Assembly: GCA_051313645.2 (NCBI GenBank) | Contig: JBNRSN020000009.1 | Location: 184,016,001-184,080,000, forward strand | Direction: 5' to 3' | Source: Centroscyllium fabricii | Lineage: Eukaryota | DNA length: 64,000 bases | In this document: positions 2,897-46,000 of the stretch, piece after piece | How the letters are laid out: each line of letters starts with the position of its first letter | Numbering within the stretch: position 1 is the stretch's first letter | Position numbers and translations under genes: made by a program | Notes under the pieces: model-generated | Databases searched by the model: none | What the model was told of the DNA's origin: nothing | Seen by the model: the letters and a program-made list of their open reading frames with translations, nothing else

Positions 2897-3145
2897 TGTG
2901 ATAAACTGTATATCACTGTAATACCATGTAACACCTGTATAGCACTGTAATACCATGTAACACCTGTATGATACCTGGCACCGCCCATGACTCCTCCCCC
3001 GCCGGAGGAGGTACATAAAGGACTGTCCCCATCCCCCGCGCCATTCTGGGGACAGTCAGCTCGGTTGTGTATCTCCAACGAAGTTAATAAAAGCCTGATT
3101 ATTATAACCAACTATTCGACTCCGAAGACGTTATTGACGGTTACA
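2897..3145 (+). repeat. 5' LTR, family 1
   Basis: TGTGATAA...TTACA; TACATAAA TATA-like box; AATAAA; internal tandem duplication in U3. Confidence 0.95.
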
Positions 3146-3164
3146 ATTTTATTAACTTCTTGAA

Positions 3165-6100
3165 ATGGATACTGCAATGTTGAAACCATCAGTGTTCGAG
3201 GTTGACCCCCGATCTCCTGGAGCATCCAATGCCTTCTCACACTGGCGAAATGTATTGGAAGGATACATTAGAGCCAACGCAACGGACATAATGACCGAGG
3301 AGCAAAAACGACGGCTCCTCCACGCCCGGGTGGGCCCGCAAGTATACTCGATGATCGTGGACGCCTCATCATTTAACGAAGCCCTCAGGACCCTCGACGG
3401 GGAATACAATCGGGCGCCAAACAGAGTCCACGCGAGACACATACTGGCCACCCGAAAACAGCAGGACAACGAATCAAGTGTGCAGTTCCTAAGAGCCCTC
3501 AGAACCCTGGCACGGGACTGTGACTGCAGAGCACAAACGGCCCTAGTACATATGGAGAGTCTCATCAGGGATGCCTATGTAACAGGCCTAAAATCGGACT
3601 ATGCTAGGCAAAGACTATTAGAACAAAATGGCCAGGACTTACAGGCCACTGTCGATTTGGGACACGCGCTAGACAGCGCCTCTACAGATTTATCATCGTA
3701 TTCTACTAACTATACGGGCCCAGCCCCGCAATCTTGGACAGTGCGGGGGCAGAGACCGTCAGAGGAACTTCTCACAGCGGCCCACGCTAAAGCGAAATGT
3801 TACTTCTGTGGACAACCACAGCATCAAAGACGTAGCTGCCCCGCCAGAGAAGCAATCTGCTCCAAGTGCGACAAAAAGGGGCACTATGCAAAGGTCTGCA
3901 AAGGCCCATATGTTAAACCAAGACTGGACAGTGCTGCCTGTGGAACAAGGGAGCTGCAAAATCGGCCTCGCCCATCCCCCAACCAGCAGCACTCAAGCTC
4001 AAGGCTGCAGCAGCACCCATCCCCCACCCAACAGCAGAGCACATGGAGGCAGCCATCCCAGGAAACTGACCTGGAGGACTACTCCCCGGATCAAAATCAC
4101 TACTATCCAGACCGAGATAACTACTCTCCGGATCAAGATTTTGGGGAGGACCCAGTACTAGCATCTATGAGCCTAGATCAGAAGACAATCCAGCCACTGG
4201 GGAGATCAATGATGCCGGTGGAAGTTAACGGTGAAGAGGTGGTGTGCCTGTTCGACAGCGGGAGCACAGTAAGTTTTGTACATCAGAATACTGTTAAGCG
4301 CCTCTCCCTTAAAGTAATCCCTGCGCGCCAGAGAATATCTATGGCGTCAAAATCGGAATCCGCTGATGTCACCGGGCGCTGTAGTGTAACGCTAAACGTA
4401 AAGGGGGCTATCTTTAACAAGTTTAGTTTTTACGTGCTGCCGCAGCTCTGCGCCCCCCTACTCCTGGGACTGGATTTCCAGTGCCACCTTCAGAGCGTTA
4501 CGATGGCTTTCGGTGGACCCCTCCCTCCCCTCACGGTCACAAACCGCGACTCAAAGCGGAACCCCCAGTATACTACCTGCGGTCTCTCAACCCTTAAGGT
4601 TACCCCTCCATCCCTTTTTGCTAACCTCACCCCAGACTGTAAGCCCGTCGCCACCAAGAGTAGGCGCTACAGTGCTGGGGACAGGGCATTTATAAAATCT
4701 GAGGTGCAGCGCCTCCTAAAAGAAGGGGTCATAGAGGCTAGCAACAGCCCCTGGAGAGCACAGGTAGTCGTGGTGAAAACCGGGGAAAAGAATAGGATGG
4801 TAGTGGATTACAGCCAGACCATAAACCGGTTCACCCAACTAGATGCCTACCCCCTCCCCCGGATAGCGGACATGGTAAACCAAATCGCCCAATTTAAAGT
4901 GTTCTCAACCATCGATTTAAAATCTGCTTATCACCAGCTCCCCATCCGCTCACAGGACCGTCTCTATACTGCTTTCGAGGCTGACGGCCGCCTCTACCAC
5001 TTCCTTAGGGTGCCGTTCGGAGTCACGAACGGGGTCTCGGTCTTCCAAAGGGAGATGGACCGAATGGTCGATCGGTACAGGCTGCGAGCGACCTTCCCGT
5101 ACCTCGATAATGTGACCATCTGCGGCCATGACCAGCAGGACCATGACGCCAATCTCCAAAAATTTCTCCACACCGCCAAAACCCTGAACCTCACGTATAA
5201 TAAGGAGAAATGTGTGTTTAACACCGGTCGCCTCGCCATCCTCGGCAACGTGGTGGAAAATGGAGTCATCGGTCCAGACCCGGACCGCATGCGCCCCCTC
5301 ATGGAGCTTCCCCTCCCCCACTCCCCCAAATCTCTTAAACGGATTTTGGGATTTTTTGCTTATTATGCCCAGTGGGTCCCCAATTATGCGGACAAAGCTC
5401 GCCCACTATTAAAATCAACCTCTTTCCCACTTTCTGCAGAAGCCAACTCGGCATTCTGCGGAATAAAAAAGGACATAGCCAAAGCCACGATGCACGCTGT
5501 GGATGAGTCCGTCCCATTCCAAGTGGAAAGTGATGCATCTGACTTTGCACTGGCCGCCACCCTTAACCAGGCGGGCAGACCCGTGGCCTTCTTTTCACGT
5601 ACCCTCCAAGGCCCAGAAACCCGCCATTCCTCAATCGAAAAGGAGGCCCAAGCAATTGTTGAAGCAGTGCGGCACTGGAAGCACTACCTGGCCGGAAAGC
5701 GTTTTACCCTGTTGACTGACCAACGCTCAGTCGCTTTTATGTTCAACAACAAAGAGCGGGGTAAGATTAAGAACGACAAAATATTAAGGTGGAGAATTGA
5801 ACTATCAGCGTTCAATTATGATATTTTGTATCGGCCCGGGAAATTTAACGAACCCCCAGATGCCCTATCCCGCGGTACCTGTGCCAGCGCACAGGCTGAC
5901 CGTCTCCAAACCCTTCACAACGACCTCTGCCACCCGGGGGTCACTAGGTTGGTTCACTTCGTGAAGTCCCGCAACCTCCCCTACTCCATCGAAGAAGTCA
6001 AGACCATGACTAGCAACTGCCAGGTCTGCGCGGAGTGCAAGCCGCACTTCTACCGGCCAGACCGGGCGCACCTAATCAAGGCCACTCGCCCCTTTGAACG

Positions 6101-7199
6101 ACTCAGTGTCGATTTTAAAGGGCCCCTTCCCTCAGCCAACAGGAACGTCTATTTCCTCAACGTTATAGATGAGTACTCCCGTTTCCCTTTCGCCATCCCC
6201 TGCCAGGACATGACCTCCGCCACTGTTATCAAAGCCCTCAGTAGCATCTTCTCCCTGTTCGGGTACCCGAACTATATCCACAGTGACCGGGGGGCCTCTT
6301 TTATGAGCGACGAGCTGCGTCAGTACCTGCTGGCGAAAGGTATTGCAACCAGCAGGACCACCAGCTACAACCCCCGGGGGAACGGGCAGGTAGAGAGAGA
6401 GAACGCCACGGTTTGGAAGGCCATCCAGTTAGCCCTAAAGTCAAAAGACCTCCCAGTCACCCGATGGCAGGACGTTCTCCCTGAAGCACTCCACTCTATC
6501 AGGTCCCTATTGTGTACTGCCACTAACACCACCCCTCACGAAAGACTTTTTGCCTTCCCCAGGAAGTCAGCTTCCGGGACCTCGCTACCATCGTGGCTGC
6601 TATCTCCGGGACCGGTTCTGCTGCGGAAGCATGTGAGGGGACACAAAGCAGACCCCCTAGTCGAACGGGTCCACCTCCTGCACGCCAATCCCCAGTACGC
6701 GTACATAGCGTACCCCAACGGGAGGGAGGACACCGTGTCCATAAAGGACCTAGCCCCAGCAGGGATCCCCAAAACCAGCCCAGCCAGGCAGCCCGAGCTC
6801 CCAAAACCCCCAGTGACCCCCCCCGAGCCACCGAAGCCGAAGTACGAGCTCCGCCACGTGGGCCCAGTACCCCAGTATGTCCACAAGGCACCTGCGCGCA
6901 GCACGACCCAGCCCCAAGCCTGGATCCACAATGCGCTCCCCCCAGAGCCAGAGGACGAAAGAGAGAGCGCGCCCCCTGCTGTCGAAATAAGGGCATCACC
7001 GCCACCCGGAAGTGACATAACCACCACCGGCCAACCAGCAGAAAAGGAACAAACGACGCAACCAGCCACCCCACGACAACGAACACCACAGGCACTGCCA
7101 GCACGGCGAGCCACTCAACGACAACGAACACCACAGGCACCACCAGCGCTACGAAGATCAGCGCGGACGACGAAACCGCCTGAAAGACTGAACATATAG
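3165..7199 (+). CDS. Gag-Pol polyprotein (2x CCHC knuckle, PR, RT, RNase H, IN), 1344 aa
   Basis: CYFCGQPQHQRRSC and CSKCDKKGHYAKVC; LFDSGS; LDAYPLP, IDLKSAYHQ, PFGV, YLDN; ESDAS/EKEA/TDQ/DALSR; HHCC and D,D-35-E. Confidence 0.97.
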   Translation: MDTAMLKPSVFEVDPRSPGASNAFSHWRNVLEGYIRANATDIMTEEQKRRLLHARVGPQVYSMIVDASSFNEALRTLDGEYNRAPNRVHARHILATRKQQDNESSVQFLRALRTLARDCDCRAQTALVHMESLIRDAYVTGLKSDYARQRLLEQNGQDLQATVDLGHALDSASTDLSSYSTNYTGPAPQSWTVRGQRPSEELLTAAHAKAKCYFCGQPQHQRRSCPAREAICSKCDKKGHYAKVCKGPYVKPRLDSAACGTRELQNRPRPSPNQQHSSSRLQQHPSPTQQQSTWRQPSQETDLEDYSPDQNHYYPDRDNYSPDQDFGEDPVLASMSLDQKTIQPLGRSMMPVEVNGEEVVCLFDSGSTVSFVHQNTVKRLSLKVIPARQRISMASKSESADVTGRCSVTLNVKGAIFNKFSFYVLPQLCAPLLLGLDFQCHLQSVTMAFGGPLPPLTVTNRDSKRNPQYTTCGLSTLKVTPPSLFANLTPDCKPVATKSRRYSAGDRAFIKSEVQRLLKEGVIEASNSPWRAQVVVVKTGEKNRMVVDYSQTINRFTQLDAYPLPRIADMVNQIAQFKVFSTIDLKSAYHQLPIRSQDRLYTAFEADGRLYHFLRVPFGVTNGVSVFQREMDRMVDRYRLRATFPYLDNVTICGHDQQDHDANLQKFLHTAKTLNLTYNKEKCVFNTGRLAILGNVVENGVIGPDPDRMRPLMELPLPHSPKSLKRILGFFAYYAQWVPNYADKARPLLKSTSFPLSAEANSAFCGIKKDIAKATMHAVDESVPFQVESDASDFALAATLNQAGRPVAFFSRTLQGPETRHSSIEKEAQAIVEAVRHWKHYLAGKRFTLLTDQRSVAFMFNNKERGKIKNDKILRWRIELSAFNYDILYRPGKFNEPPDALSRGTCASAQADRLQTLHNDLCHPGVTRLVHFVKSRNLPYSIEEVKTMTSNCQVCAECKPHFYRPDRAHLIKATRPFERLSVDFKGPLPSANRNVYFLNVIDEYSRFPFAIPCQDMTSATVIKALSSIFSLFGYPNYIHSDRGASFMSDELRQYLLAKGIATSRTTSYNPRGNGQVERENATVWKAIQLALKSKDLPVTRWQDVLPEALHSIRSLLCTATNTTPHERLFAFPRKSASGTSLPSWLLSPGPVLLRKHVRGHKADPLVERVHLLHANPQYAYIAYPNGREDTVSIKDLAPAGIPKTSPARQPELPKPPVTPPEPPKPKYELRHVGPVPQYVHKAPARSTTQPQAWIHNALPPEPEDERESAPPAVEIRASPPPGSDITTTGQPAEKEQTTQPATPRQRTPQALPARRATQRQRTPQAPPALRRSARTTKPPERLNI

Positions 7200-7328
7200 T
7201 CAAAAGAACGTTAATTGTATATATTTCGTTATTTAGCACAGTGTAATTAGTTGTTTTTCTTTTCCCTTTTTGTACCCCCCCGCGAGTTGTTCACCCCACC
7301 GTACTTTAGTTTTTAAAGAAGGGGTGAA

Positions 7329-7577
7329 TGTGATAAACTGTATATCACTGTAATACCATGTAACACCTGTATAGCACTGTAATACCATGTAACACCTGTA
7401 TGATACCTGGCACCGCCCATGACTCCTCCCCCGCCGGAGGAGGTACATAAAGGACTGTCCCCATCCCCCGCGCCATTCTGGGGACAGTCAGCTCGGTTGT
7501 GTATCTCCAACGAAGTTAATAAAAGCCTGATTATTATAACCAACTATTCGACTCCGAAGACGTTATTGACGGTTACA
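7329..7577 (+). repeat. 3' LTR, family 1
   Basis: Direct repeat of 2897-3145. Confidence 0.95.
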
Positions 7578-12140: not shown

Positions 12141-13380
12141 CTTATCTCAAACATTCCTTTTACTAGTTCTTTCTGAACACCTGCTCAGTTATCTTTAGAG
12201 TTTTGGTCAGCTCTCCGAACTTTATGACCGATTCCTGCTCGGTGTGTAAACAACCACGGCACGGTGGCACAGTGGTTAGCACTGTTGCCTCACAGTACTG
12301 GAGACCCGGGTTCAAATCCGGCCTCGGGTGACTATCTGTGTGGAGTTTGCACATTCTACCCGTGTCTGCGTGGGTTTCCTCCGGGTGCTCCGGTTTCCTC
12401 CCACAGTCCAAAGATGTGCGGGTTAGGTTGATTGGCCAGGATAAATTGACCCTTAGTGTTAGGTGGATTAAATATGTGGGGTTACGGGGATAGGGTGGGA
12501 TATGTGTAGGTGCAGGCTCAATAGGGATCGAGGGATATGGGGACAAGGCAGGGACAGGGTACTGGGTTTGGATGATCAGCCATGATCTTGTAGCGCCGGC
12601 AGGCCTAGGAAGCACACGTGAACCAGAGCTAGAGAAAACACAGCTTTATTACACTAAGTAAAACAAGAAAGAGAGTGAACCACTCGCAACGATCGTATTT
12701 AAACCGTCCCGTGGTTGGTGACGTCATCGCGTCGGCCGACGTGGTGACGTCGTCGCGTCACCCAGATGAGCGGGGCTTTGCTCCGCGGAGTCCCCGTGGC
12801 GGATTCAATGTCTCAGTGGGCATGCCGCCACACAGCTCCCCCCAGAATCCGTCCGGGAGGAATAGTGACAGTGTCTATGTGTGCCGTTGGGGTGGCCGGA
12901 TGATGCGGCTGGACCGTGTTGTTAGTTGCTCCTGGTTCTGCGGTGGAGTGTGTGCGGGTTTTGTTGCGGGAGGGCGACCACGTTGTGGTGGTTGTGCGGG
13001 GACCATTGTCTCACTCGTTATCACGTGTGCCGGCTTGAGCCGGTCTATTGTCACAGTGTCAGTCCTGTTGCCCATTTGTAACTCAAAAGCTTTAGTCCCC
13101 GCCCGAAGCACTCTGTAGGGGCCATCGTACGGTGGCTGTAGTGGAGATCGGTGTCCGTCGCGCCGGACGAACACGAATTTCGCATTTTTAATGTTGTCCG
13201 GCACCCGAGCTGCCGGCTCTCCATGCCGGGCCACTGGTAGTGGCTGGAAAGCTTGTGCTGGGTTGGCGAAGTCTTTTAAATACTGGTCGGCTGACCAGGG
13301 AGCGTTGGGCTCAGCCAGGAACTCGCCCAGCACCGTTAAAGTTTGGCCGTAGACGAGCTCCGCTGCCGAGGTGTTGAGGT

Positions 13381-13996
13381 ACATAGATACATAGATACAT
13401 AGATGATAGGAGCAGGAGTAGGCCATTCGGCCCTTCGAGCCTGCTCCGCCATTCAATGAGATCATGGCTGATCCTTCAGTTCAGTATCCCGTCCCTGCCT
13501 TCTCTCCGTAACCTTTAACCCCTTTTGCCTGCAGAAATATATCTAATTCCCTCTTAAATATGTTTAATGAGCTGGCGTCCACTGCCCTCTGTGGCAGTGA
13601 GTTCCACAGGTTCACCACTCTCTGGGTGAAGAAATTCCTCCTCATCTCTGTCCTAAATGGTTTAGCCCTTATCCTTAAACTGTGTCCCCTAGTTCTATAC
13701 TCTCCTGCCATCGGAAACATTCCTTCTGCATCTAGTCTGTCCAGGCCTGTCAGAATTTTATATGTTTCTATGAGATCCCCTCTCAATCTTCTAAACTCCA
13801 GTGTGTACATCCCCAAACTACATAGTCTCTCCTCATAGGTCATTCCTGCCATTCCTGGTATCAGCCTGGTGAATCGCCGCTGCACTCCTTCCATGGCAAG
13901 AACATCCTTCCTCAGATGAGGCGACCAAAACTGCACACAGTACTCGAGGTGTGGTCTCACCAGTGCCCTGTACAGCTGTAGTAAGGTGTCCTTGTT
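13381..13996 (-). mobile_element. 5'-truncated CR1 inserted in the integrase gene
   Basis: CR1 ORF2 C-terminus plus (ATCTATGT)n tail. Confidence 0.9.
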
Positions 13997-14776
13997 CCGC
14001 AGCCCGAGGAGCACCCATGGAAGGCGGTCGGTCCACGATGCGTCTTTAAGTGTGGCTCGTAGTGATGCCTTCATGGAGCGGTGGAACCGTTCGCATAGGC
14101 CGTTCGCCTGTGGGTGGTATGCGGTGGTTTGGTGTAGTGTCACCCCGAGGTCGCGGGCGATGGCCGCCCATAATGCCGACGTAAATTGGGGTCCTCTGTC
14201 GGAGGTGATGTCGGTGGGCACGCCGAAGCGGGCGACCCAGGTGGCGATGAACGCCCTGGCCAAGTCCGTGGTGCCGGTGGCGGTGAGGGGGACTGCTTCT
14301 GGCCAGCAAGTGTTGCGGTCGACCATGGTCATTAGGTGCGTGTGGCCCCGGGATGGCGGTAGTGGCCCGACGAGATCGATGTGGACATGGTCAAAACGTC
14401 TGGCCGGCACTTTAAAATTTTCCAGCGGTGCCCTGATGTGCTTATGCACTTTGGAGCGCTGGCAGGCTATGCAGGAGCTGGCCCAGGCGCGGACGTCCTT
14501 GCGCAGGCCGCGCCATACGAATCGGGCCGATATTAATTTAATGGACGCGCGGGCGCCGGGGTGGGACAGATCATGGAGGGTCCTAAATATGTGTCGCCTC
14601 CAAGCGTGGGGTACGACTGGCCTGGGTTGCGGCAAGGATACGTCGCAGCAGACGACGGTGGCTGCAGGGCCGTGCGCGATATTGGCCAAGTGGAGGCCGG
14701 GGAGATTAGTTGCTGCGTTGAGTAGGTCGGGGTCGGCCAGCTGGTCAGCGGCCAGCTGGGCGTAATCGACCGCCAT
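13481..14776 (-). pseudogene. Chimeric integrase-CR1 ORF, 431 aa
   Basis: Integrase to ...LPWVLLGLR, then in-frame NKDTLLQLYRALVRPHLEY of CR1. Confidence 0.75.
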
Positions 14777-15626
14777 TTGGGCGGCGTTAATGGTGGGGCT
14801 GGTTTCTTGGGTTTACCATGCTTTCTTAAAAAAGTTCTTTGGCTGGTGGTCCCAGATCCTGCGGCAGCTTTTTCTTCACTGGAAGTCGTTCCAGTTCGGG
14901 GTCACCACTGTAGCGCCGGCAGGCCTAGGAACCACACGTGAGCCAGAGCTAGAGAAAACACAGCTTTATTACACTAAGTAAAACAAGAAAGAGAGTGAAC
15001 CACTCGCAACGATCGTATTTAAACCGTCCCGCGGTTGGTGACGTCATCGCTTCGGCCGACGTGGTGACGTCATCGCATCACCCGGATGAGCGGGGCTTTG
15101 CTCCGTGGAGTCCCCATGGCAGATTCGATGTCTCAGTGGGCGTGCCGCCACAATCTCATTGAATGGCGGAGCAGGCTCGAAGGGCCGAATGGCCTACGGC
15201 TGCTCCTAGTTTCTATGTTGCTAACCACTATGCCATTCCCCCCAACTGCTCACTCCCCCGCCCCCTCACCTCCAAACAAAATCTGGTGAGGTTTCACTAT
15301 AGTAAAGTGTTATATAAAATAAATTGTCTTGTAGGGTAAAAGATAATCTATGCAATGGGGGTGGGGGGTGGAGGGATAAACAGCCTTTTGCAAATAAAAT
15401 AGGAGCCTGAGTTTTAAGGCCCGATTCTGAAAATCATTTACATCCAAGAAATAATGCATTGTTAATTCAGTTGGATCCAATCCTAATAGCAAAATTATTC
15501 AGCCCTTGGCTAGTAGCATTCCCATCTCTAGCCAAATGGTTTAAGATTCAAGTGCACTCCAAAATTTAAGCACATAATCTGGACTGACACTTGAATGCAA
15601 TATTCAGGAAGTGCTGCATTATATGT

Positions 15627-22957: not shown

Positions 22958-25900
22958 TGACGTATCGTCAATTCTCTTAATAAAAGACTAAACGAGTAGT
23001 GACCTTAACTATAGGCTTTTATTAACTAATTTTGGAGCTACCCTCCGATCGAACATCCAGAACAGAATGAGGGAGCCTGGTCAGTCCTTACCTATAAAGG
23101 GGCCTCACCTGGGGGAGGAGTTAGAGGTGTGGCTGACCTGGCTCCACGACAGTGTTGCAAAACGGTGTAACATACATAGCCAATATTGGCGACAATATTA
23201 CAGTGGTAAGTATATACAATATGGTTACCACATTCAACCATTTTTGAAAATTTAAGTCCGGCGGGGTGAATGGACAGAGCAGTTCATTATGAGCTTGTCC
23301 AGCGGTCGTGTCTGTCTGGAGGACCGCCGGGGCTCTGGTAAAAGTTCATCGTGTTCCATCCTGCTCGAGTCCGGTGGTGGTGACAGTGACTCTGGTGCCG
23401 AAATTTCGGATGCTGGTGGTCTCAATTGGTCCAAGCCATCGGAATGGTGGTCTTGGGCTGGCCACGGCTGGGGCTCTGGGTACCTCGGAGGCCACTGTAG
23501 ATGCAGGGGATGTTCCAGATACTGTGGCTGGGCGGGCTGCTGCCCGACCAGGGGCTCTGCTGTGGTGCTCCCTGCAGGAGCCAGGTCCCTGATGGAGACG
23601 GTGTCCTCGCGCCCGTCCGGGAACTGCACTTATGCATATTGAGGATTCGCATGCAGGAGCTGCACCTTGTCCACCAGGGGGTCAGTCTTGTGGCCACGGA
23701 CGTGTCTTCTAAGGAAGACCGGTCCCGGTGTCGTGAGCCATGGAGGAAGAGCTGTCCCCGAAGTCGACTTCCTGGGAAAGGAAAAAATCAAGTCATGAGG
23801 GGTGGCGTTAGTGGCCGTACACAGGAGAGAGCGTATTGAATGCAGCACGTCTGGGAGGACTGCCTGCCAATGGGCCACTGGAAGGCCTCTGTACTTCAGA
23901 GCCAGGGTGACCGCCTTCCAGATGATCCCATTCTCCCTTTCTACCTGGCCGATCCCCCGGGGGTTATAACTGGTCGTTCTGCTCGTGGCAAACCCTTTCT
24001 GGAGCAGAAACGGGCGCAGTTCATCGCTCATGAACGATGACCCCCGGTCGCTATGGATGTAGCTGGGGAGACCGAAAATGGCAAACAGCGTGGTGAAGTG
24101 TTTTATCACCGTTGCGCTCGTCATATCTGCGCAGGGGAAAGCGAAGGGGAAGCGGGAGAACTCATCTACGACCGTGAGGAAGTATGAGTTGCGGTCGGTG
24201 GTGGGGAGGGGGCCTTTGAAGTCCACGCTTAGACGTTCAAAGGGGCGGGTGGCCTTAATGAGGTGCACCGTGTCTGGCCAGAAAAATTGGGGTTTGCACT
24301 CGGCGCAAACAGGGCACTCTCGGGTCATAGCCTTGATCTCCGTGATGGAGTAGGGGAGGCTACGGGATCTAACAAAGTGGGCGAGTCTGGTGACACCCGG
24401 GTGGCAAAGGCGGTCATGGAGGTCCTTCAGCCGGTCTAGCTGGGCATTGGCGCACGTTCCCCTGGACAGTGCGTCCGGGGGTTCATTGAGTTTACCTGGT
24501 CGGTAAAGAATGTCGTACTCGTAAGTCGAGAGTTCGATCCGCCACTGCAGGATCTTATCATTCTTGATCTTACCCTTCTGTTTATTATTAAACATAAACG
24601 CCACCGACCGCTGGTCGGGGAGAAGGGTAAAACGCTTACTGGCCAGGTAATGACGCCAGTAGCGCACGGCCTCCACGATGGCCTGGGCCTCCTTTTCCAC
24701 TGCAGAGTGGCGAGTTTCGGGTCCCTGTAGGGTGCGGGAGAAAAATGCTATGGGCCTGCCTGCCTGATTCAGGGTGGCAGCAAGGGCAAAGTCCGAAGCG
24801 TCGCTCTCCACCTGGAAGGGAATGGATTCATCAACAGCATGCATGGTCGCTTTGATGATGTCTTCCTTTATCAGGGCGAATGCCGTTTGGGCTTCTACCG
24901 AAAGGGGGAAGACGGCAGCCTTGAGGAGTGGTCTAGCCTTGTCCGCGAACTGTGGGACCCATTGTGCGTAGTCGGAGAAAAATCCTAGGCATCTCCACAA
25001 GGCTTTGGGGTTGTGAGGTAGGGGCAGTTCTTGTAGGGGGCGCCTACGCTGTGGGTCGGGGCCGAGGACCCCGTTCTCCACCACGTATCCGAGGATGGCG
25101 AGCCGGTCTGTATTAAAGACACATTTGTCCTTGTTATACGTAAGGTCCAGCTTTTCCGCCGTATCAAGGAATTTGGCCAGGTTGGCATCGTGGTCCTGCT
25201 GGTCATGGCCGCAGATGGTCACGTTGTGCAGGTAAGGGAAGGTGGCCCGCAACTCGTTCTGGTCAACCATGCGGTCCATCTCATGTTGGAACACTGACAC
25301 TCCGTTGCTCACGCCGAAGGGGACCCAGAGGAAGTGGTAGAGCCGACCGTTCGCCTCGAAGGCGGTGTACGGGCTGTCGGCTTTCCGGATTGGGAGTTGG
25401 TGATACGCCGACTTAAGGTTGATCGTGGAGAACACCTTATATTGGGCGATCTGGTTGACCATGTCCGAAATGCGGGGGAGGGGGTAGGCGTCGAGCCCGG
25501 TGTAGCGGTTAATGGTCTGGCTGTAGTCGATAACCAGCCGCTGTTTCTCGCCAGTCTTCACCACTACTACCTGGGCCCGCCAGGGGCTGGTCCTGGCTTC
25601 AATTATCCCCTCCTTTAGCATACACCCGACCTCCGACCTGATAAACGTGCGATCCCCCAAACTGTACCGCCGACTCTTAGTAGCAATTGGTTTGCAGTTA
25701 GGGTCGAGGTTGGCGAACAGTGAGGGGGGGTCGATTTTCAGGGTGGCGAGGCCGCAGGCCGGGCTCCGCTTTGGGAAGGGACTGTCCCGGCTACTGACGG
25801 TGAGGGGGGCAAGGTCCCGCCGAACTCCATTGTCACACTCTTGAGGTGGCACTGGAAATCCAGACCTAGTAAGGCTGGGGCACACAACTGTTTGAGGGTG

Positions 25901-27718
25901 TACAATTTAAAATTACGGTACACGCAACCCTTGACTGTGAGCGTGACGGAGCAGTAGCCAGTGACGTCCGCGGTGTGGGACTGTGAAGCAAGGGAGACTT
26001 GGTAGCGCGTGGGCAGGATCTGCAGTCCGTAGCGCTGCGCTGTATCGGGGTGTACAAAACTCTCTGTGCTTCCAGTGTCGAACAGGCAATTGGTAATATG
26101 GCCGTTAATTTTGATCGGCATGATCGAGTTCGATAGGTTGTTTGGCCTAGCCTGGTCCACTTTGGGTATGGCTGAGGCCGAAGTGTGCCTTTGTGTGTGG
26201 GGGCCCCCTGCTTGTTGGGGCTGTACACAAAATGGCAGCGCCCATGGCTCCCACATGTCAGTGCACTGGAGACAAGATGGCGGCGCCGGGGGGTCGCACA
26301 TGGTGGGCCGCTGGAGACAAGATGGCGGCGCCCGTGGTTCACACACGGCTGACCGCTGTGAGCGCGCTGGAGGCGCCCGTGGTTCGCACGCAGTGGGCCG
26401 CAGTGGCTGGGTTGGCGGTGCCCGTGGTTCGCACGCAGCGGGTCTGCCGCTGGCGTTGGGGGGTCGCGCTTGGCCGGCCGTGGCTGAGCTTTGCGTGCCG
26501 TGGGTGCAGCCGGCCTTTGCTGCATCAAGGTGGGAGATGGGGGCGCTTTTCTTCTACCCCCGGACCGTCGCTGGATCGCGCTGCTATTGCAGCTTACCTG
26601 AGTCCTGGCGGAGCTTTCACAGGCTGCGCTGTTGTACCTGGAGTTGGGCGCTGCTGGTGCTGATCTGCAGGCCTTCGTGTAGTGTCCCTTTTTGGAGCAC
26701 CTCTCACAGGTTGCGGTCCTCGCTGGGCATCTCGCTCGTGGATGCAGTCCCTGACCGCAGAAGTGGCATCGTTTGTCCTTTGCGGCTGTCGCAGCCATCG
26801 TGGGGGTCTCGACCCATTGTGGTGCTGCCCAGGCCTGGGCCCGTTGTGGCACGGCCCACATTTCATAGGCCTGCGGGTTAGTGCCGCTGTACGCCTGCAG
26901 CTTGTTGCGTGCCCCTTCTACAGAGTTAGATATGGAGATCGCCTCCTCTAGAGTCAGAGAGTCTTTCTCGAGCAGCCGCTGGCGGGCTTCCACACACCTC
27001 ACGCCTGTTACGTATGCGTCACGGATGAGGATATTCGCCTCTTCCTCTGCTGTCCGTGCTTGACAGCCACAGACCCGTACCAGGGCTTGGCGTGCTTGTT
27101 CAAATTGTTCATTTGTCTCAACCGGTAGTTGCGGTCTGGTCGTGAGCACATGTCTGGCGTAGACCGAGTGGACCGGGCACTCGTAGCATTTCCGCAGTTT
27201 TTCGACTGCCGCTGGGTAGGTTTTGGCATCTCTGATGAGGGAGAATACTCGGCTGGAGATCCTAGACCGGAGAACTTGCAATTTGTTCCCGTCGGTTGTA
27301 GCCTTGGCGGCGTCCATATAGGCCTCCAGGAGACCGAACCAGTGTTCGAACGTGGTGGCGGCGGCTGGGTCCTGTGGACTGGTGTCCAGCTTCTCTGGCT
27401 TTACCGCACCGCTCTCCATTTCAAATTTTCTTAGTTAATAAAATTGACGTATCGTCAATTCTCTTAATAAAAGACTAAACGAGTAGTGACCTTAACTATA
27501 GGCTTTTATTAACTTAATTTGGAGCTACCCTCCGATGGAACATCCAGAACAGAATGAGGGAGCCTGGTCAGTCCTCACCTATAAAGGGGCCTTACCTGGG
27601 GAGGAGTTAGAGGTGTGGCTGACCTGGCTCCACGACAGTGTTGCAAAACGGTGTAACATACATAGCCAATATTGGCGACAATATTACGGTGGTAAGTATA
27701 TACAATATGGTTACCACA
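22958..27718 (-). mobile_element. Full-length Ty3/Gypsy element (family 2), degenerate
   Basis: LTRs 27445-27718 and 22958-23232; TSD ATGCG; no tRNA PBS. Confidence 0.95.
23252..27419 (-). pseudogene. gag-pol with two frameshifts, a stop and a YLHN mutation
   Basis: ORF pieces 25866-27419, 25738-26346, 23630-25885 and 23252-23629 are collinear with the family 1 polyprotein. Confidence 0.92.
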
Positions 27719-30556: not shown

Positions 30557-31721
30557 AACATAAGAACATAAGAAGTAGGAGCAGGAGTAGGCCAATCGGC
30601 CCTTCGAGCCTGCTCCGCCATTCAATAAGATCATGGCTGATCTGATCCTAGCCTCAATTTTATTTTTACTCTCTACCCCGCCCCAACCAATGTAATCACC
30701 TGGGAGAGATGAAAAACCAGACATGGCCGATCTCAACCTAGCCTCACGTCCACTTACCAGCCCGTTCACCATAACCCCTAATTCCCTTTAATTCCAGGAA
30801 ACTGTCTATCTCAGTTTTAAATTTATTCAACGTAGTAGCTTCTACAGCTCTCTGTGGTAGCAAATTCCACAGCCGCACCACCCTCTGAGTAAAGAAGTTC
30901 CCCCTCATCTCAGTTTTAAAATGGGAGCCCTTTATTTTAAGATTATGCCCCCTAGTCCTAGTCTCACCCACCATTGGGAACATCCTCACCGCATCCACCC
31001 GATCAAGCCCTCTCACAATCTTATATACCTCAATAAGATCGCCCCTCATTCTTCTGAACTCCAATGAGTAGAGGCCCAATCCACTCAGCCTCTCGTCATA
31101 TGTTAGTCCCCTCATCCCCGGAACTAACCTAGTGAATCTTCTCTGCACTGCCTCGAGAGCAAGTATGTCCTTTCTTAAATAGGGACACCAGAACTGCACG
31201 CAGTATTCCAGGTGTGGTCTCACCAATACCCTGTACAACTGCAACAAGACCTCCCTGCTTCTATACTCAATCCCCTTAGCAATAAAAGCCAACACTCCGT
31301 TGGCCTTCCTTACCACCTGCTGCACCTGCATATTAACTTTCTGTGTCCCCTGCACCAGGACCCCCAGATCCCTTTGCACAGAAGTACTTTCCAGTTCCTT
31401 TCCATTTAGATAATAACTTGCTCTATTATTTTTCCTGCCAAAGTGCATAACTTCACATTTTCCAGTATTATACTCCATCTGCCAAATCTCTGCCCACTCA
31501 CTTAGCTTATCTATGTCCTTTTGCAGGGTTTTAATGTCCTCCTCATTCATCACCCTCCCTCCCATTTTTGTGTCATCTGCAAACTTTGATACGCTGCACT
31601 TGGTCCCTTCTTCCAAATCGTTAATATAGATTGTAAAGAGTTGGGGTCCCAGCACCGACCCTTGCGGAACACCACTAGTGACTGACTGCCAGTCTGAGAA
31701 TGAACCATTTATCCCAACTCT
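30557..31721 (-). mobile_element. 5'-truncated CR1 LINE with open RT C-terminal half
   Basis: GVPQGSVLGP, FADD, LGV motifs in ORF 30744-31760. Confidence 0.95.
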
Positions 31722-32029
31722 CACAGTTCCCTCTGTGGCATTCCGTTCTGCATGGAACAATTACTTCCATAGGTTGCTGATGCACACTCTCCACTTCCTC
31801 GCCCTAGCCTTTCATCAGGGCACACTCTAGCGTAATATTTCACAGGCCGACGGAAGCAAGTGTCCTCATTGGTAGGCCCAGTATTCAGGGATCTTGCCTG
31901 GCACCACTGGGGACCTGGTGGTCGAGAGTATGGCACGACATAGTGACCTCGAACGTCCTTTTCAGTCACATTTTGTAGACACTCAGGCCACGTGTCCATT
32001 TTGCGGCCTTAATGAGGATATCTACCATA

Positions 32030-39247: not shown

Positions 39248-41130
39248 AGTATCTTTACTTTCTCCTGGGCACTTTGTAGCATTATTATCTGAGCACTGAC
39301 TTGAGTAACCAGACTTTAGTTGTGTCCTGCACCTTAAAGAAAAGCAGCAGAGGGACTGGTAGGTCTATTAGTCCAGGAGGAGTGAATGGGAGTTGCTATT
39401 TAAGATGAAAACCTTTCAGCAGAATACAGTGCTGGCAGAAGAGTCGACAGCCATTGTATTGGCGTTTCCTCCTTTCCCTCTTTGCCGAGCTATCATCCCA
39501 TCCTGATATGCCAGCATTTTCTGCTTTAACTCTAGACCTGCTCATCAGCCTTTTGCTTTTAATTTTTTTCCCCACATCACCTTTTCCTTATGTGTGCCTC
39601 TCACTACCTTATCTATTCACACATTCATTTGTTTCCCTATCTAATGTTGATAATGCTGCTTTCCATCACCTGATGTAGAAAACATCTCAATCATCTGGCA
39701 ATCTCCTATTATAAGTAGGTTGTAAGACATTCCACCAATACTTGTATTTGATATTCCCCCTTCTCTTTTTCTGATTCTACATATGGGCAGGATTTTCCTG
39801 AATGTGTGGGAAATGGGTGGGATCCCCACTGATCACTCCATCTTCCCACTTTCTGAAGGGTGTGGAAGCCCCAAGCAATTTTGGCTTAATTGGCCAATTA
39901 AGTCCCCAAGTGTGGGAAGACCCTGCCAATTGATGGATTTTACATAGTGTGGTAACCCTTATATGGTTACCATTGCCTTATATGGCTACCATTGTATAAG
40001 TGCCATTGCACTGCTGGGAGCCAGGTCAGACACACCCTCGACTCCTCCCCAGGTGGGGACACCGATATAAGGTGTGGCCAGACACAGCCCCTTCATTCTT
40101 GTATGTGAACTTGTAAGGAGACTAGCTCCATTCTTTATCAATTAAAAGCCTTGTATTTCGGTACTTACGAGTCGCCTTTTAATTGAGCTAGCGACTACAC
40201 TACAATTTTAATTGATAAACTTAAAATGGAGAGCAGCAAGTTAAAACCTAGGGAGCTGGACATTAGCCCCCAGGATGACGCGGCACCAGCTACCTTCAAG
40301 CACTGGTTTGGATTACTAAAGGCCTATATGGCAGCAGCCAAGGCTACCACGGACGAGGACAAACTCCAACTCCTGCTATCCAGGGTCTCCAGCAGGGTTT
40401 TCAACCTTGTCGAGGACCTTACAACCTACGAGGAAACGGTGACGACCCTCAAACAGTACTATGAGCGCCCGGTCCACTCTGACTATGCTCGCCACCAACT
40501 AGCGACCCGATCTCAACTACCCAGTGAGTCAAACGACCAGTTTGAGCAAGCGCTCCGGGGCATGATACGGGCCTGTGGCTGCAAGGGTGGATTGACCAAG
40601 GCACAGGAAGAAAACAACCTCCTCCGGGACGCCTATGTCTCAGGACTAAGATGTGCAGTAGCCCGTCAGAGACTACTGGAAAAGGACAATCTGACCCTTG
40701 AGGAGGCAACCACGTTAGCCAAATCGGTGGAAGGGGCCCGGAATAAATCGCAGACATACGGTGGTACCAGCCATCAAGTCTACAACATATGGGCCGCACC
40801 ACAACAGGCGTCACGGATTGAGAGCCCCACGATGGCCGCGACGGCCACCACGGACACTAAGCTCAAACACTGCTATTTCTGCAGCCAAGGATTGCACCCC
40901 AGAGCAAAATGCCCAGCCAAGACGGCGACCTGCGAAAAATGCTCCAAGAAGGGACACTTCGCCAAAGCCTGCAGAGCCACTCCAGCCACAGCATCCAAAA
41001 GGTACAATGCAGCCTGTGAGAGCAACTATCACCAGGTAAGCTGCATTTGCAGTACTATTCAGCGACGGCAAGCGCCCCCTCCCCCCGCCTCGATGCAGCG
41101 GCAACCGGCCAAACGCGAGCTTACAACGCG

Positions 41131-41650
41131 GCCGGCTGCGTGCGAATCACGGGCGCCGCCAGCGCGTTCACCACGGTTCGCTGCGTGCGAATCATGGGCG
41201 TGGCCAGCGTGTTCACCGCGGTTCGCTGCATGCGAATCACGGGCACCGCCAGCGCGTTCACCGCGGTTAGCTGCGTGTGAATCACGGGCACCGCCAGCGC
41301 GTTCACCGCGGTTCGCTGCATGCGAATCACGGGCACCGCCAACGCATCAGGGCCTCGCAGTAACGCTACCCCGCAACCCAGGCCCCTCCATGTGCGAACC
41401 ACGGAAGACGCCATCTTGCGCCCAGGGCTCCTCCATGTGCGAGCCAAGGGCGGCGCCATTTTGTACCCAGGGCCCCTCCATGTGCGAGTCAAGGGCGGCG
41501 CCATTTTGTACCCAGGGCCCCTCCATGTGCGAGTCAAGGGCGGCGCCATTTTGTACCCAGGGCCCCTCCATGTGCGAGCCAAGGGCGGCACCATTTTGTA
41601 TCCAGGGCCCCTCCATGTGCGAACCATGGGCGGCACCATTTTGTGCACAG
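41131..41650 (+). repeat. Two arrays of in-frame 45-nt tandem repeats in the gag-PR linker
   Basis: AACESRAPPARSPRF about x5, then GPSMCEPRAAPFCTQ about x6. Confidence 0.9.
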
Positions 41651-42428
41651 TCCCCATCAGCAGGGGCTGCTACAACTACAGTCAGCCAAAGCAAGCCCCA
41701 TCACTTGTCTAATTCATTAATACGTATTAGGATTAATAACCATACCGTCGACTGCCTCCTCGACACGGGCAGTACCGAGAGTTTCATTCACCCTGATACA
41801 GTGCGGCATTTCGGGCTGCAGGTCCTGCCCACCAACTACCAAGTGTCCCTAGCTTCACAGTCCCACACCGTGGACGTCACCGGCTACTGCTCCGTCACAC
41901 TCACCGTCCAGGGACGCGTGTACCGCAATTTTAAATTCTATACCCTCAAAAAGTTGTGTGCCCCAGCCTTACTAGGCTTGGATTTCCAGTGCCACTTCAA
42001 GAGCGTGACCATGGAGTTCGGCGGGACTTTACCCCCCCTCACCCTCAGTAGCCGGGACAATCTCCCCCCGAAGCGGACCCTGGCCTGCGGCCTCTCCAAC
42101 CTGAAAATCGACCCCCCCTCGCTGTTCGCCAACCTCGACCCAAAGTGCAAACCAATCGCCACTAAGAGTCGGCGGTACAGTGAGGGGGATCGCACGTTTA
42201 TCAGGTCGGAGGTCAGGCGGATGCTGAAGGAGGGGATTATTGAAGCCAGCACCAGCCCCTGGCATGCCCAAGTTGTAGTGGTGAAGTCTGGTGAGAAACA
42301 ATGGCTAGTGATCGACTATAGCCAGACTATCAACCGCTACACCGGGCTCGACGCCTACCCCCTTCCCCGCATCTCAGAAATGGTCAACCAGATCGCCCAG
42401 TACAAGGTGTTCTCCACAATCGACCTGA

Positions 42429-43006
42429 AGGCCCTGTCACACCTTGACGTTTTAGCCAGCGTATGCAAATTTGGCTAAAACGTTGGGTTACGTCGGATAC
42501 GTTATGGGTAAGTTTTGTATACGTTAAGAGCACGCTGGCATACGCTGGCCATAAGTTGCATAAGTCGTTGTACTTCGAGTAAGTTGAGAAATTTTGAGCA
42601 TGCACAAAATTTCTCGACGTACCCTGCGTATGACTCACACGTTCCGCATACGCTGGCCATAAGTTGTAGGCACGTTAGGCGAGCGTTGACACACGTCGAT
42701 ACACGTTACTTGTAAGTTAGTCATAAGTTAGTCATAAATCAAAATACGTCGAGATAATGTCTAGCGTACCCGGAACTTATTTCTAACCTATGAGTAACGT
42801 GCTTTGAACCTATGTGGAGCGTATCTCCAACGCATATTGACGACCACAGAACTTACTGAACGTGTTTCTAACTTACAGCTACCGTATAATACGTTATACG
42901 TCCAACTCGTTATGAATACGCTATTAAACGCCCAAAGTTCAGCGTAACCCAGCGTTTTAGCCAAATTTGCATACGCTGGCTAAAACGTCAAGGTGTGACA
43001 GGGCCT
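42429..43006. mobile_element. Young long-TIR MITE (Harbinger-like) inserted in RT
   Basis: TIRs of about 64 bp, AGGCCCTGTCACACCTTGACG..., with 1 mismatch; flanks TGA/TCA. Confidence 0.9.
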
Positions 43007-46000
43007 TCAAGTCGGCGTATCATCAGCTCCCGATTCGGAAAGACGACCGCCCCTACACCGCCTTCGAGGCGAACGGTCGGCTCTACCACTTTCTCCGGGT
43101 CCCCTTTGGCGTGACCAACGGAGTGTCCGTGTTCCAGCGGGAGATGGACCGTATGGTTGACCAGAATGACTTGCAGGCCACCTTCCCCTACCTGGACAAC
43201 GTGACCATCTGCGGCCACGACCAGCAGGACCACGATGCCAATCTGGCCAAATTCCTCGCCACGGCGGCTAAGCTGGACCTTACGTATAACAAAGACAAGT
43301 GTGTCTTTAATACAACCCGGCTCGCCATCCTCGGATACGTGGTGGAGAACGGGGTCCTCGGCCCCGACCCACAGCGTATGCGACCCCTGCTAGAACTGCC
43401 CTTACCTCACAACCCCAAAGCCTTGAGGAGATGTCTAGGATTTTTCTCCTACTATGCACAATGGGTCCCACAGTTCGCAGATAAGGCTAGACCACTCCTC
43501 AAGGCTGCACTCTTCCCCCTTTCTATAGAAGCCCAAAAGGCATTCGAAAAGATAAAGGAAGATATCATCAAGGCGACCATGCTCGCTGTTGATGAATCCA
43601 TCCCTTTCCAGGTGGAGAGTGACGCTTCGGACTTTGCTCTTGCTGCCACCCTGAATCAGGCAGGCAGGCCCGTAGCGTTTTTCTCCCGCACCTTACAGGG
43701 ACCCGAGACTCGCCACTCTGCAGTGGAAAAGGAGGCCCAGGCCATCGTGGAGGCCGTGCACTACTGGCGTCATTAACTGGCCGGTAAGCGTTTTACCCTG
43801 CTCACCGACCAACGGTCGGTGGCGTTTATGTTTAATAATAAACTACGGGGTAAAATCAAGAATGTTAAGATCATGCGGTGGCGGATCGAACTCTCGACTT
43901 ACGAGTACGACATTCTTTACCGACCAGGCAAACAAAACGAACCCCCGGACGCACTGTCCAGGGGAACATGCACCAGTGCCCAGCTAGACCGGCTGAAGGA
44001 TCTCCACGACCGCCTCTGTCACCCAGGTGTCACCAGATTAGCCCATTTCGTCAAATCACGTAGCCTCCCCTACTCCATCACGGAGATCAAGGAGATGACC
44101 CGAGATTGCCCTGTCTGCACCGAGTGCAAACCCCACTTTTTCCGGCCAGACACGGCGCACCTCATTAAGGCCACCCGCCCCTTTGAACGTCTCAGCGTGG
44201 ACTTCAAAGGCCCCCTCCCCTCCACCGACCGCAACTCATACTTCCTCACGGTAGTGGATGAGTTCTCCCGCTTCCCCTTCGCCTTCCCCTGCCCAGATAT
44301 GACGAGCACAACGGTAATCAAACACTTCACCACGCTGTTCGCCATCTTCGGTCTCCCCAGCTACATCCATAGCGACTGGGGGTCATCGTTCATGAGCGAT
44401 GAACTGCGCCAGTTTCTGCTCCAGAAAGGGGTTGCCACGAGCAGGACGACCAGTTATAACCCCCGGGGGAACAGCCAGGTAGAAAGGGAGAATGGGATCA
44501 TTTGGAAGGCGGTCACCCTGGCTCTCAAGTCCAGAGGCCTTTCAGTGTCCCATTGGCAGGCAGTCCTCCCAGACGCGCTGCACTCTATCAGGTCATTATT
44601 ATGTACTGCTACTAATGCCACCCCGCACGATCTTGTTTTTTCCTTCAACAGGAAGTCAACTTCGGGGACGGCGCTCCCACCATGGCTGACGACTCCGGGG
44701 CCGGTTTTCCTTAAGCGGCACGTTCGGTGCCACAAGACGGACCCCCTGGTGGACAAGGTACAGCTCCTACACGCCAACCCGCACTATGCCTTTGTGCAGT
44801 TCCCAGACGGGCGTGAGGACACCGTGTCCATCAGGGACCTGGCCCCGGCCGGAAACACCGCCACAGCGCCTCCTGCTGGCCAGCAGGTCGACCTACCACC
44901 AGACACAAGATGGGCCCTGAGTTTCCCCGCCGATGCACCAGACGACGAGGTCCAGCAGAACCCACCACGTCCAGAACTTACAGCACCAACAGAGGCGGGC
45001 TTTTCGACTATGGAGGCATCACCACCAACACCGGAACCCCGGCGATCCGCAAGACAAACGCGACCGCCGGAGAGACTGATTATGAACTGTTCCGTACATT
45101 CACCCCCCCCGGACTCAAAGTTTTTAAGAAGGGGTGAATGTGGTAACCCTTATATGGTTACCATTGCCTTATATGGCTACCATTGTATAAGTGCCATTGT
45201 ACTGCTGGGAGCCAGGTCAGCCACACCCTCGACTCCTCCCCAGGTGGGGACACCGATATAAGGTGTGGCCAGACCCAGCCCCTTCATTCTTGTATGTGAA
45301 CTTGTAAGGAGACTAGCTCCATTCTTTATCAATTAAAAGCCTTGTATTTCGGTACTTACGAGTCGCCTTTTAATTGAGCTAGCGACTACACTACACATAG
45401 AAACTGGGCGGGCTTTGCACTGTGTCAGCAGCAGAGCTGATGATAGGCAGCTGTGGTGTTTCTCTTTCTGTGGCTTCAGAGCATTATGATGTGATAATGC
45501 AATGTCAACAGATGAAACCACAAATCAAACAGTGACAGCTTTAACTAGGCTGGCTCTGATTGTTTGTGGTTTCAGTGGAATGTAAACAGAAACTGACCCA
45601 CTGGATGATTGACATAACTGATTTGCTTCACAGACATAGCTCTCATGCGATGTCTTGAGTCAGTGGGATGCAGCTGGCAGGTAAGTGATATTAAGGTCTT
45701 TGGCCACTGAAGTTTGGCACCCTTGGGAGACAGTTACATCTGCAGCATGTTGGAGGTCAGCAAGCTGCTGTGCGGCAGCTGTTTCCCATGCCTTGCAGGT
45801 AACAGTCACCCAGCCGATTGGGTGTCCACCAGCTTTCAACGGCGGTGTTCCCACCAGGCGGATTTTGGGTGGGAAGAGGCTCAAAGTAGCAAGGGGCCCT
45901 TAAAATGGCATTACTGGTGCCAATTAAGGGCCCCTAATGAGCCTAATGAGCATCCCCGCCAATGCCAGGCGGGACTGAGGCGGGCCGATCAGACCCGCCA

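What the first reader, a model, noticed from the sequence alone, without database searches (positions are those of the whole stretch)
5100..5111. RT catalytic motif is YLDN, not YxDD, in a recently mobile element
Seen: TAC CTC GAT AAT in family 1 and TAC CTG GAC AAC in family 3 (43189-43200); family 2 has a decayed YLHN (25223-25234). The Asn is kept across synonymous changes, and family 1 has identical LTRs, so this looks like the working state. Known: the second Asp is near-invariant in RTs, and the equivalent D-to-N change in yeast Ty1 keeps in vitro polymerisation but blocks transposition. Inference: compensatory changes exist, possibly linked to the unusual priming.
Basis: partly seen in the sequence, partly recalled or inferred. 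Interest (0 to 1): 0.7.

Follow-up and report, generated by a model that had tools for sequence, protein, structure and literature searches.

The report
Retrotransposon lineage toggling a catalytic aspartate
A hugely amplified family of jumping genes, likely in a shark or ray, has asparagine where its copying enzyme normally has a fixed aspartate; relatives across animals switch between the two repeatedly and likely prime copying on their own RNA, giving natural enzyme pairs for testing what that residue does.

Summary
The genome holds 211,376 exact YLDN-motif matches, 276 YLDD and 420 of a YLDS control. The subfamily of the intact element has 2,971 Asn copies and no Asp copy, and the RT is under purifying selection (dN/dS 0.07-0.15). 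Mobilisation in trans is unlikely.

The element belongs to a Ty3/gypsy lineage (sharks, rays, cnidarians, a mussel, a damselfly, nematodes) in which Asp and Asn swap 30 times among 264 proteins, with no co-switching residue found. YLDD families carry the same tRNA-less leader. That leader pairs 11-19 bp with its own LTR, with family-specific covariation, which points to Tf1-like self-priming from an internal arm over the poly(A) signal (inferred).

Best reading: lineage-wide changes made the third aspartate dispensable. Natural YVDN is already published for BEL/Pao elements; I found no report for Ty3/gypsy. The scan noted the same thing before on other DNA of this genome. New variant of a known kind.

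The parts
2897..7577 (+). Element 1: intact Ty3/gypsy-type LTR retrotransposon, 4681 bp, 5-bp target-site duplication
   Evidence: 30 of 30 fetched genome copies are 99.6-99.97% identical to it over 3.4 kb (these were the best-scoring hits)
2897..3145 (+). 5' LTR (249 nt, TG...CA), identical to the 3' LTR at 7329-7577
3012..3047 (+). TATA-like box (3012-3019) and initiator-like motif (about 3041-3047); predicted transcription start, not mapped
   Evidence: both motifs at the same spacing in 12 of 15 own-genome junctions
3080..3092 (+). LTR arm holding AATAAA that is complementary to the leader; predicted self-primer arm, predicted cut after 3092
3147..3159 (+). Leader at the primer-binding-site position, one base after the LTR; 13-nt perfect complement of 3080-3092; does not start with the TGG of a tRNA PBS
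3165..7199 (+). Single gag-pol ORF: Gag with two Cys/His zinc knuckles (read from the sequence), protease, RT, RNase H, integrase
4914..4916 (+). First catalytic Asp of the RT (D587 of P0001), kept
   Evidence: Asp in 263 of 267 lineage rows (3 gaps, 1 Val)
5100..5111 (+). YLDN motif (residues 649-652): second catalytic Asp kept, third is Asn
7315..7328 (+). Polypurine tract before the 3' LTR
22958..27718 (-). Element 2: broken relative, LTRs 97.5% identical, YLHN at 25234-25223, gag-pol split over two frames, same type of leader
39948..45395 (+). Element 3: broken relative, LTRs 98.8% identical, YLDN at 43189-43200, 14-bp leader pairing over ATTAAA, MITE inside the RT

Best explanation
YLDN is the family-wide state of this Ty3/gypsy-type retrotransposon, and its reverse transcriptase likely works with only two of the three active-site aspartates because old, lineage-wide changes likely made the third dispensable. 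Shown: Asn is fixed in the amplified families; the RT is under purifying selection; the other two aspartates and three RNase H carboxylate positions are kept; Asp and Asn swap many times across the lineage; outside the lineage only Asp was seen. Inferred: the two kept aspartates bind both metals, as in the Ty1 D211N enzyme, which still polymerises. Inferred: the permissive background lies among residues shared by Asp and Asn members (Q536, S553, A609, V627, W740 in the RT; Q856 beside the RNase H Asp), echoing the RNase H suppressors of Ty1 D211N. Separately, and in Asp and Asn families alike, the element likely self-primes: an LTR arm about 40-53 nt into the predicted transcript pairs with the leader, is cut at its 3' end (by RNase H, by analogy with Tf1) and primes minus-strand DNA. 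The two traits share a lineage, but priming does not require Asn.
For: Genome counts: Asn 211,376, Asp 276, Ser control 420. Element-1 subfamily: 2,971 AAT, 0 matches for a pattern covering the Asp codons. 150 of 150 scored hits are identical over 145 aa, most in 1347-codon frames (best hits only). dN/dS against element 1 is 0.07-0.15 in 4 of 9 comparisons; synonymous sites are saturated in the other 5 at pN 0.11-0.13. Homologues: 96 Asn and 24 Asp of 120; with an Asp-bearing query 40 Asn and 41 Asp of 82. Tree: 30 changes among 264 rows with the site's column left out, at least 15 forced; lineage against 25 outgroup rows needs 1 change. Outside the lineage 65 of 65 rows are DD. No co-switching residue: the 12 best-associated column states go the same way in at most 3.9 of 15 independent pairs. 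Leader pairing: 34 of 61 loci against 3 of 61 control stretches; 17 distinct leaders pair 14.3 nt on average with their own LTR, and 1 of 272 cross-family pairs reaches 11. Ty1 D211N polymerises and is partly rescued by RNase H suppressors (PMC2148107).
Against: No enzyme activity was measured. In Ty1 the same change cuts kpol 223-fold and stops transposition, so 'dispensable' rests on population evidence. The shared residues are only lineage signatures; none is shown to be permissive. Co-switching was tested only in RT-RNase H, only for the top 14 of 658 column states, and with 15 pairs, so several alternative compensations would be missed. Some single Asp or Asn proteins may be post-insertion mutants. 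The large tree is FastTree with long-branch warnings. Asn is clustered on the tree (30 changes against 83 shuffled), which does not exclude selection for it. For priming: the start site is predicted only; the element-1 fold has z = -1.6; the minimum-energy fold of element 2 does not form the leader helix; 27 of 61 loci had no hit.
Confidence: 0.75

Rival explanations
1. One reading: Asn arose once, needs its own compensating changes, and is coupled to the tRNA-less priming.
For: In this window and genome, Asn and the leader occur together. Ty1 D211N needs suppressors. All Asn rows lie inside the one lineage that has this leader.
Against: 30 Asp/Asn changes, at least 15 forced; fully supported sister pairs differ at the site (P0054/P0066, P0082/P0112). 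YLDD families L048/L050, L083, L098 and L102/L104/L105 have the same leader helix. No co-switching column.
Confidence: 0.08
2. Asn is not neutral but a tuned, slower polymerase that is favoured in some hosts, for example to balance polymerase against RNase H or to limit damage to the host.
For: Asn is fixed across families whose synonymous sites are saturated, although Asp is one transition away. The one true YLDD family seen here is small (29 of the first 100 listed of 449 matches) and 6 of 6 sampled copies are broken. Only Asp or Asn is tolerated (266 of 267 rows).
Against: Asp members are about as common elsewhere (41 of 82; 49 of 83), and reversions to Asp appear inside Asn groups. Fixation in one genome can be descent from one ancestor.
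Confidence: 0.14
3. The YLDN polymerase is dead and the copies were made in trans by a YLDD helper.
For: A related YLDD family exists in the genome. Other gypsy families with YLDD were not surveyed.
Against: YLDD copies of the YLDN families are no commoner than a Ser control. The YLDD family is about 52-57% identical in RT/RNase H, older and broken in 6 of 6 samples. The YLDN RT keeps its other catalytic residues under purifying selection.
Confidence: 0.03
4. For the leader alone: the helix serves only to hide the 5' LTR poly(A) signal and prevent premature polyadenylation; the primer is something else.
For: The paired arm covers AATAAA or ATTAAA in most families, and the leader exists only at the 5' end.
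Against: The leader sits exactly at the PBS position with a fixed one-base spacer, and no TGG-type PBS is left. The helix end is fixed (AAA then RCC in most families) even where the hexamer is not canonical. G-U pairs are nearly absent (1 G-U, 5 mismatches, 225 Watson-Crick of 231 positions in 33 junctions kept of 54 candidates), as expected if the site is recopied from the primer in each cycle. Both roles could coexist.
Confidence: 0.2

Closest known systems
BEL/Pao (Belpaoviridae) elements with YVDN: C. elegans Cer7-Cer12 and hookworm Atlas (PMC554778, PMC9094657; passages read)
   Same: Natural Asp-to-Asn at the same RT position in intact LTR elements; activity untested according to PMC554778 (2005).
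   Different: A different superfamily. Here the RT is Ty3-like, the site toggles repeatedly, and the Asn families have over 200,000 copies.
Ty1 RT D211N mutant (PMC2148107; abstract, introduction and passages read), and the Ty3 active-site mutants cited there (not read)
   Same: Same substitution; polymerase activity is kept; RNase H suppressors restore 5-10% of transposition.
   Different: Laboratory mutants that are crippled in vivo; here Asn is the natural amplified state.
Tf1/Tf2/Tj1 self-priming elements (PMC7175516, PMC4600332; passages read)
   Same: PBS position complementary to the element's own LTR RNA, followed by a further U5 helix in the element-1 fold.
   Different: [quoted passage not shown] Here the arm is 11-19 nt, covers the poly(A) signal and is predicted to lie about 40 nt inside the transcript. 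No chromodomain was found.
Cigr-1 clade of Ty3/gypsy (named by earlier scan note e1-9160346; listed under the Mag lineage in a supplement of PMC6238403)
   Same: Marine-animal Ty3/gypsy clade reported from a tunicate, molluscs and annelids. The one-residue insertion after the DY motif is shared with outgroup rows whose motifs I recall as Mag-type.
   Different: I had no Cigr-1 sequence, so membership is untested here.

Membership tests
Ty3/gypsy LTR retrotransposons (Metaviridae) | LTRs with TG...CA ends, target duplication and polypurine tract | tested here: met
Ty3/gypsy LTR retrotransposons (Metaviridae) | pol order protease-RT-RNase H-integrase | tested here: met
   Pfam order in P0001
Ty3/gypsy LTR retrotransposons (Metaviridae) | RT closest to Ty3 among solved structures | tested here: met
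   4OL8 is the best hit by sequence and by fold of the model, pLDDT 90
Ty3/gypsy LTR retrotransposons (Metaviridae) | YxDD motif and tRNA primer-binding site (typical, not universal) | tested here: not met
   YLDN; the leader is self-complementary and does not start with TGG. No tRNA library was searched.
BEL/Pao (Belpaoviridae) | BEL-type RT and triple Cys-His box in Gag | tested here: not met
   RT matches RVT_1 and Ty3; two knuckles read in P0001. Only the Asn is shared.
Tf1/sushi self-priming chromoviruses | PBS position complementary to the element's own LTR RNA | tested here: met
Tf1/sushi self-priming chromoviruses | [quoted passage not shown] | not testable with these tools
   Start site predicted about 52-55 nt upstream of the helix end from TATA/initiator motifs; not mapped
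Tf1/sushi self-priming chromoviruses | Chromodomain at the end of the integrase | tested here: not met
   No chromodomain family hit at E 0.001
Cigr-1 clade | RT/RNase H groups with Cigr-1 of Ciona intestinalis | not testable with these tools
   No protein named Cigr-1 among the hits listed; the searched supplements gave names and accessions but no YLDN or WRAQ match

The most novel reading that the evidence does not exclude
An old, animal-wide Ty3/gypsy lineage has made its third RT aspartate optional and primes on an internal arm of its own RNA that doubles as the poly(A) signal. One helix would then hide the 5' poly(A) signal, supply the primer and be recopied every cycle. A two-aspartate version of this machine may have built roughly a tenth of a 7.2-Gb vertebrate genome.
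Probability: 0.45. Interest if true: 0.7.

Novelty: new variant of a known kind. Interest (0 to 1): 0.5.

Why it matters
The role of the third RT aspartate has been open since the Ty1 D211N work, and PMC554778 names the activity of natural YVDN enzymes as undetermined. This lineage offers many natural Asp/Asn sister enzymes and a short list of shared residues that may make the site optional. It also matters for annotation: pipelines that require YxDD or a tRNA PBS would call these highly successful elements dead or incomplete. If the internal self-primer is right, self-priming extends beyond the Tf1/sushi group with a different geometry.

Tried and rejected
Literature: 'YLDN' + retrotransposon gave 1 irrelevant paper; 'YLDN' + reverse transcriptase gave 0; YVDN/YXDN/YLDN/YIDN/YMDN + retrotransposon gave 3 listings, all BEL/Pao; asparagine/YXDD/gypsy terms gave 0. 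Self-priming searches listed no paper on this lineage that I could recognise from titles and abstract starts. Repbase, GyDB and most subscription papers are not held. I recall Repbase reports titled 'self-primed Gypsy' that I could not check, so the leader may be described there. The primary Ty1 and Ty3 mutant papers and one genome paper were not held. Supplements not searched: file 2 of PMC6238403; files 11, 13 and 14 of PMC8556966.

No RNA holder was listed, so no reads were laid. The Atlas search and cluster look-up gave only generic RT families and no clade name. The predicted model confirms the Ty3 fold but gave no coordinates for measuring the active site. No tRNA gene lies in the window.

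Rejected: sequencing error or decay (copy counts); a YLDD helper (control counts); one origin of Asn (trees); an Asn-specific partner residue (none found; raw associations such as positions 585, 638, 690 and 804 mostly vanish in independent pairs). Rows dropped: P0036 and P0044 (short) from the tree; 2 of 150 rows not covering the motif; rows under 300 aa or with neither DD nor DN, and all but 25 outgroup rows; 13 of 23 blocks with stops, indels or low identity.

Full report
OBSERVATION. Element 1 (2897-7577) has identical 249-nt LTRs, a 5-bp target duplication, a polypurine tract and one gag-pol frame of 1347 codons in the order protease, RT, RNase H, integrase. YLDN aligns with YLDD of Ty3 RT, and the predicted model matches Ty3 RT best. 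Elements 2 and 3 are broken relatives, about 72% identical to element 1 in pol protein. The nearest named proteins come from catsharks and rays, so the host is likely a shark or ray (inference).

IS ASN THE WORKING STATE? A degenerate pattern for the motif with its flanks finds 211,376 Asn matches, 276 Asp matches and 420 matches for Ser, a control that is also one transition away. Asp copies of these families are thus no commoner than random change. The element-1 subfamily has 2,971 Asn copies and none matching a pattern that covers the Asp codons. All 150 scored protein hits are identical over 145 residues, most in full-length frames; these are the best hits by construction. Thirty fetched copies are 99.6-99.97% identical to element 1. 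Between Asn families the RT shows dN/dS 0.07-0.15 in 4 of 9 comparisons and saturated synonymous sites in the other 5, with both AAT and AAC codons in use (10 of 23 blocks kept). The other two aspartates are kept in 263 and 265 of 267 lineage rows, and three RNase H carboxylate positions are kept too. A looser pattern (449 matches) revealed one true YLDD sister family, 29 of the first 100 listed. It is about 52-57% identical in RT/RNase H, and 6 of 6 sampled copies are broken. It is a poor candidate for a helper. Other gypsy families in the genome were not surveyed.

IS ASN ONE CLADE? No. Of 120 homologues, 96 have Asn and 24 Asp. A search from an Asp-bearing member added 40 Asn and 41 Asp of 82. 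Named hosts include sharks, rays, Actinostola, Oculina, Xenia, Mytilus, Ischnura, Trichuris and Trichinella; most rows are unnamed. Among 148 of 150 cluster representatives there is a gap between a lineage at 38% identity or more (31 DN, 49 DD, 3 other) and other gypsy RTs (65 of 65 DD); the deepest lineage members are mostly DD (15 of 17), which suggests Asp was ancestral (inference, not a rooted test). An IQ-TREE quick tree of 119 rows needs 14 changes, 7 forced. A FastTree of 264 lineage rows, with the site's column dropped, needs 30, 15 forced. Fully supported sister pairs differ at the site.

COMPENSATION. Several columns associate with Asn in raw counts, but the 12 best go the same way in at most 3.9 of 15 independent pairs (similar). 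I tested only the top 14 of 658 column states and only RT-RNase H. What does stand out is a set of residues shared by Asp and Asn members and absent from 20 diverse outgroup representatives: Q536, S553, I556, A609, V627, F670, L715, W740 and Q856. S553 replaces a conserved Arg and V627 a conserved Pro near the template path (roles recalled from HIV RT numbering, not tested). Q856 sits next to an RNase H aspartate. In Ty1, D211N keeps polymerase activity, lowers kpol 223-fold, prefers Mn2+, blocks transposition, and is rescued to 5-10% by RNase H suppressors (PMC2148107, abstract and introduction). So a permissive background is plausible, but which residues provide it is unknown.

THE LEADER. 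One base after the 5' LTR, where a tRNA site should be, each element has 11-14 bases complementary to an arm of its own LTR that covers the poly(A) signal. Across genome and metagenome loci, 34 of 61 had such a pairing (32 of the junction type by my reading) against 3 of 61 control stretches. Seventeen distinct leaders pair 14.3 nt on average with their own LTR; 1 of 272 cross-family pairs reaches 11 nt (hits were selected for 11 nt or more). With motif anchors instead, 33 of 54 candidates were kept at 9 of 11 pairs or better, and positions 5-11 show 225 Watson-Crick pairs, 5 mismatches and 1 G-U. The scarcity of G-U fits recopying of the site from the primer (inference). YLDD families have the same helix: L048/L050 (15 bp), L083 (16), L098, and L102/L104/L105. 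The leader is therefore a lineage trait, independent of Asn. Tf1 self-primes with the first 11 bases of its RNA after an RNase H cut (PMC7175516, passage). Here TATA-like and initiator-like motifs lie 81-86 and 51-58 nt before the helix end in 12 of 15 own-genome junctions, so the arm is predicted to be internal; the 18 metagenome junctions do not show this spacing. Against: the element-1 fold is only z = -1.6, the element-2 minimum-energy fold prefers other hairpins, and hiding the 5' poly(A) signal is a rival or second function.

COMPARISON WITH WHAT IS KNOWN. Natural YVDN is published for BEL/Pao elements: Cer7-Cer12, with activity called undetermined (PMC554778, passages), and Atlas (PMC9094657, passage). 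I found no paper on YxDN in Ty3/gypsy, but Repbase and GyDB are not held. I had the toggling and the leader result before seeing it. The clade name I could not test: no Cigr-1 sequence came from any tool. That note is not independent support.

VERDICT. It is a Ty3/gypsy lineage in which the third RT aspartate is likely optional and which likely self-primes in a non-Tf1 geometry. Enzyme activity and priming are inferred, not measured. Novelty: new variant of a known kind. Interest 0.5.

Noticed in passing
window 42425-43010: A MITE of about 580 bp with 72-nt inverted ends (97% complementary) is inserted in the first RT motif of element 3; its ends and 3-bp TWA-like target look Harbinger-type (label recalled).
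   Followed up: partly
window 12589-15152 (-): An internally deleted gypsy element of another kind (integrase only, LTRs 95% identical) with a TGG-type PBS two bases after the LTR, which I recall as tRNA-Trp; a 5-bp target duplication in a host repeat.
   Followed up: partly
G000:C158:2050400-2064130: Four element-1 copies in tandem at 4,432-bp spacing (element length minus one LTR), so they share LTRs.
   Followed up: no
G000 genome-wide: 211,376 motif matches at about 4.6 kb each would be near 1 Gb, about 13% of the assembly, if most copies are full length (not checked).
   Followed up: no
LTR arm, window 3082-3083 and relatives: An AG at helix positions 11 and 10 is kept in 15-16 of 17 distinct leaders while neighbouring pairs vary, often after a pyrimidine run; unexplained.
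   Followed up: no
window 41336-41695: A 45-bp tandem repeat expansion inside the gag-protease linker of element 3.
   Followed up: no
L031-L045: Scattered YLDD copies in Asn-family sequence contexts occur at the frequency of a neutral transition and look like single post-insertion changes.
   Followed up: partly
window 30744-31760 and 63312 region: Non-LTR (LINE-type) RT fragments with the FADD motif, among many copies of a host SINE/LINE-tail repeat.
   Followed up: no
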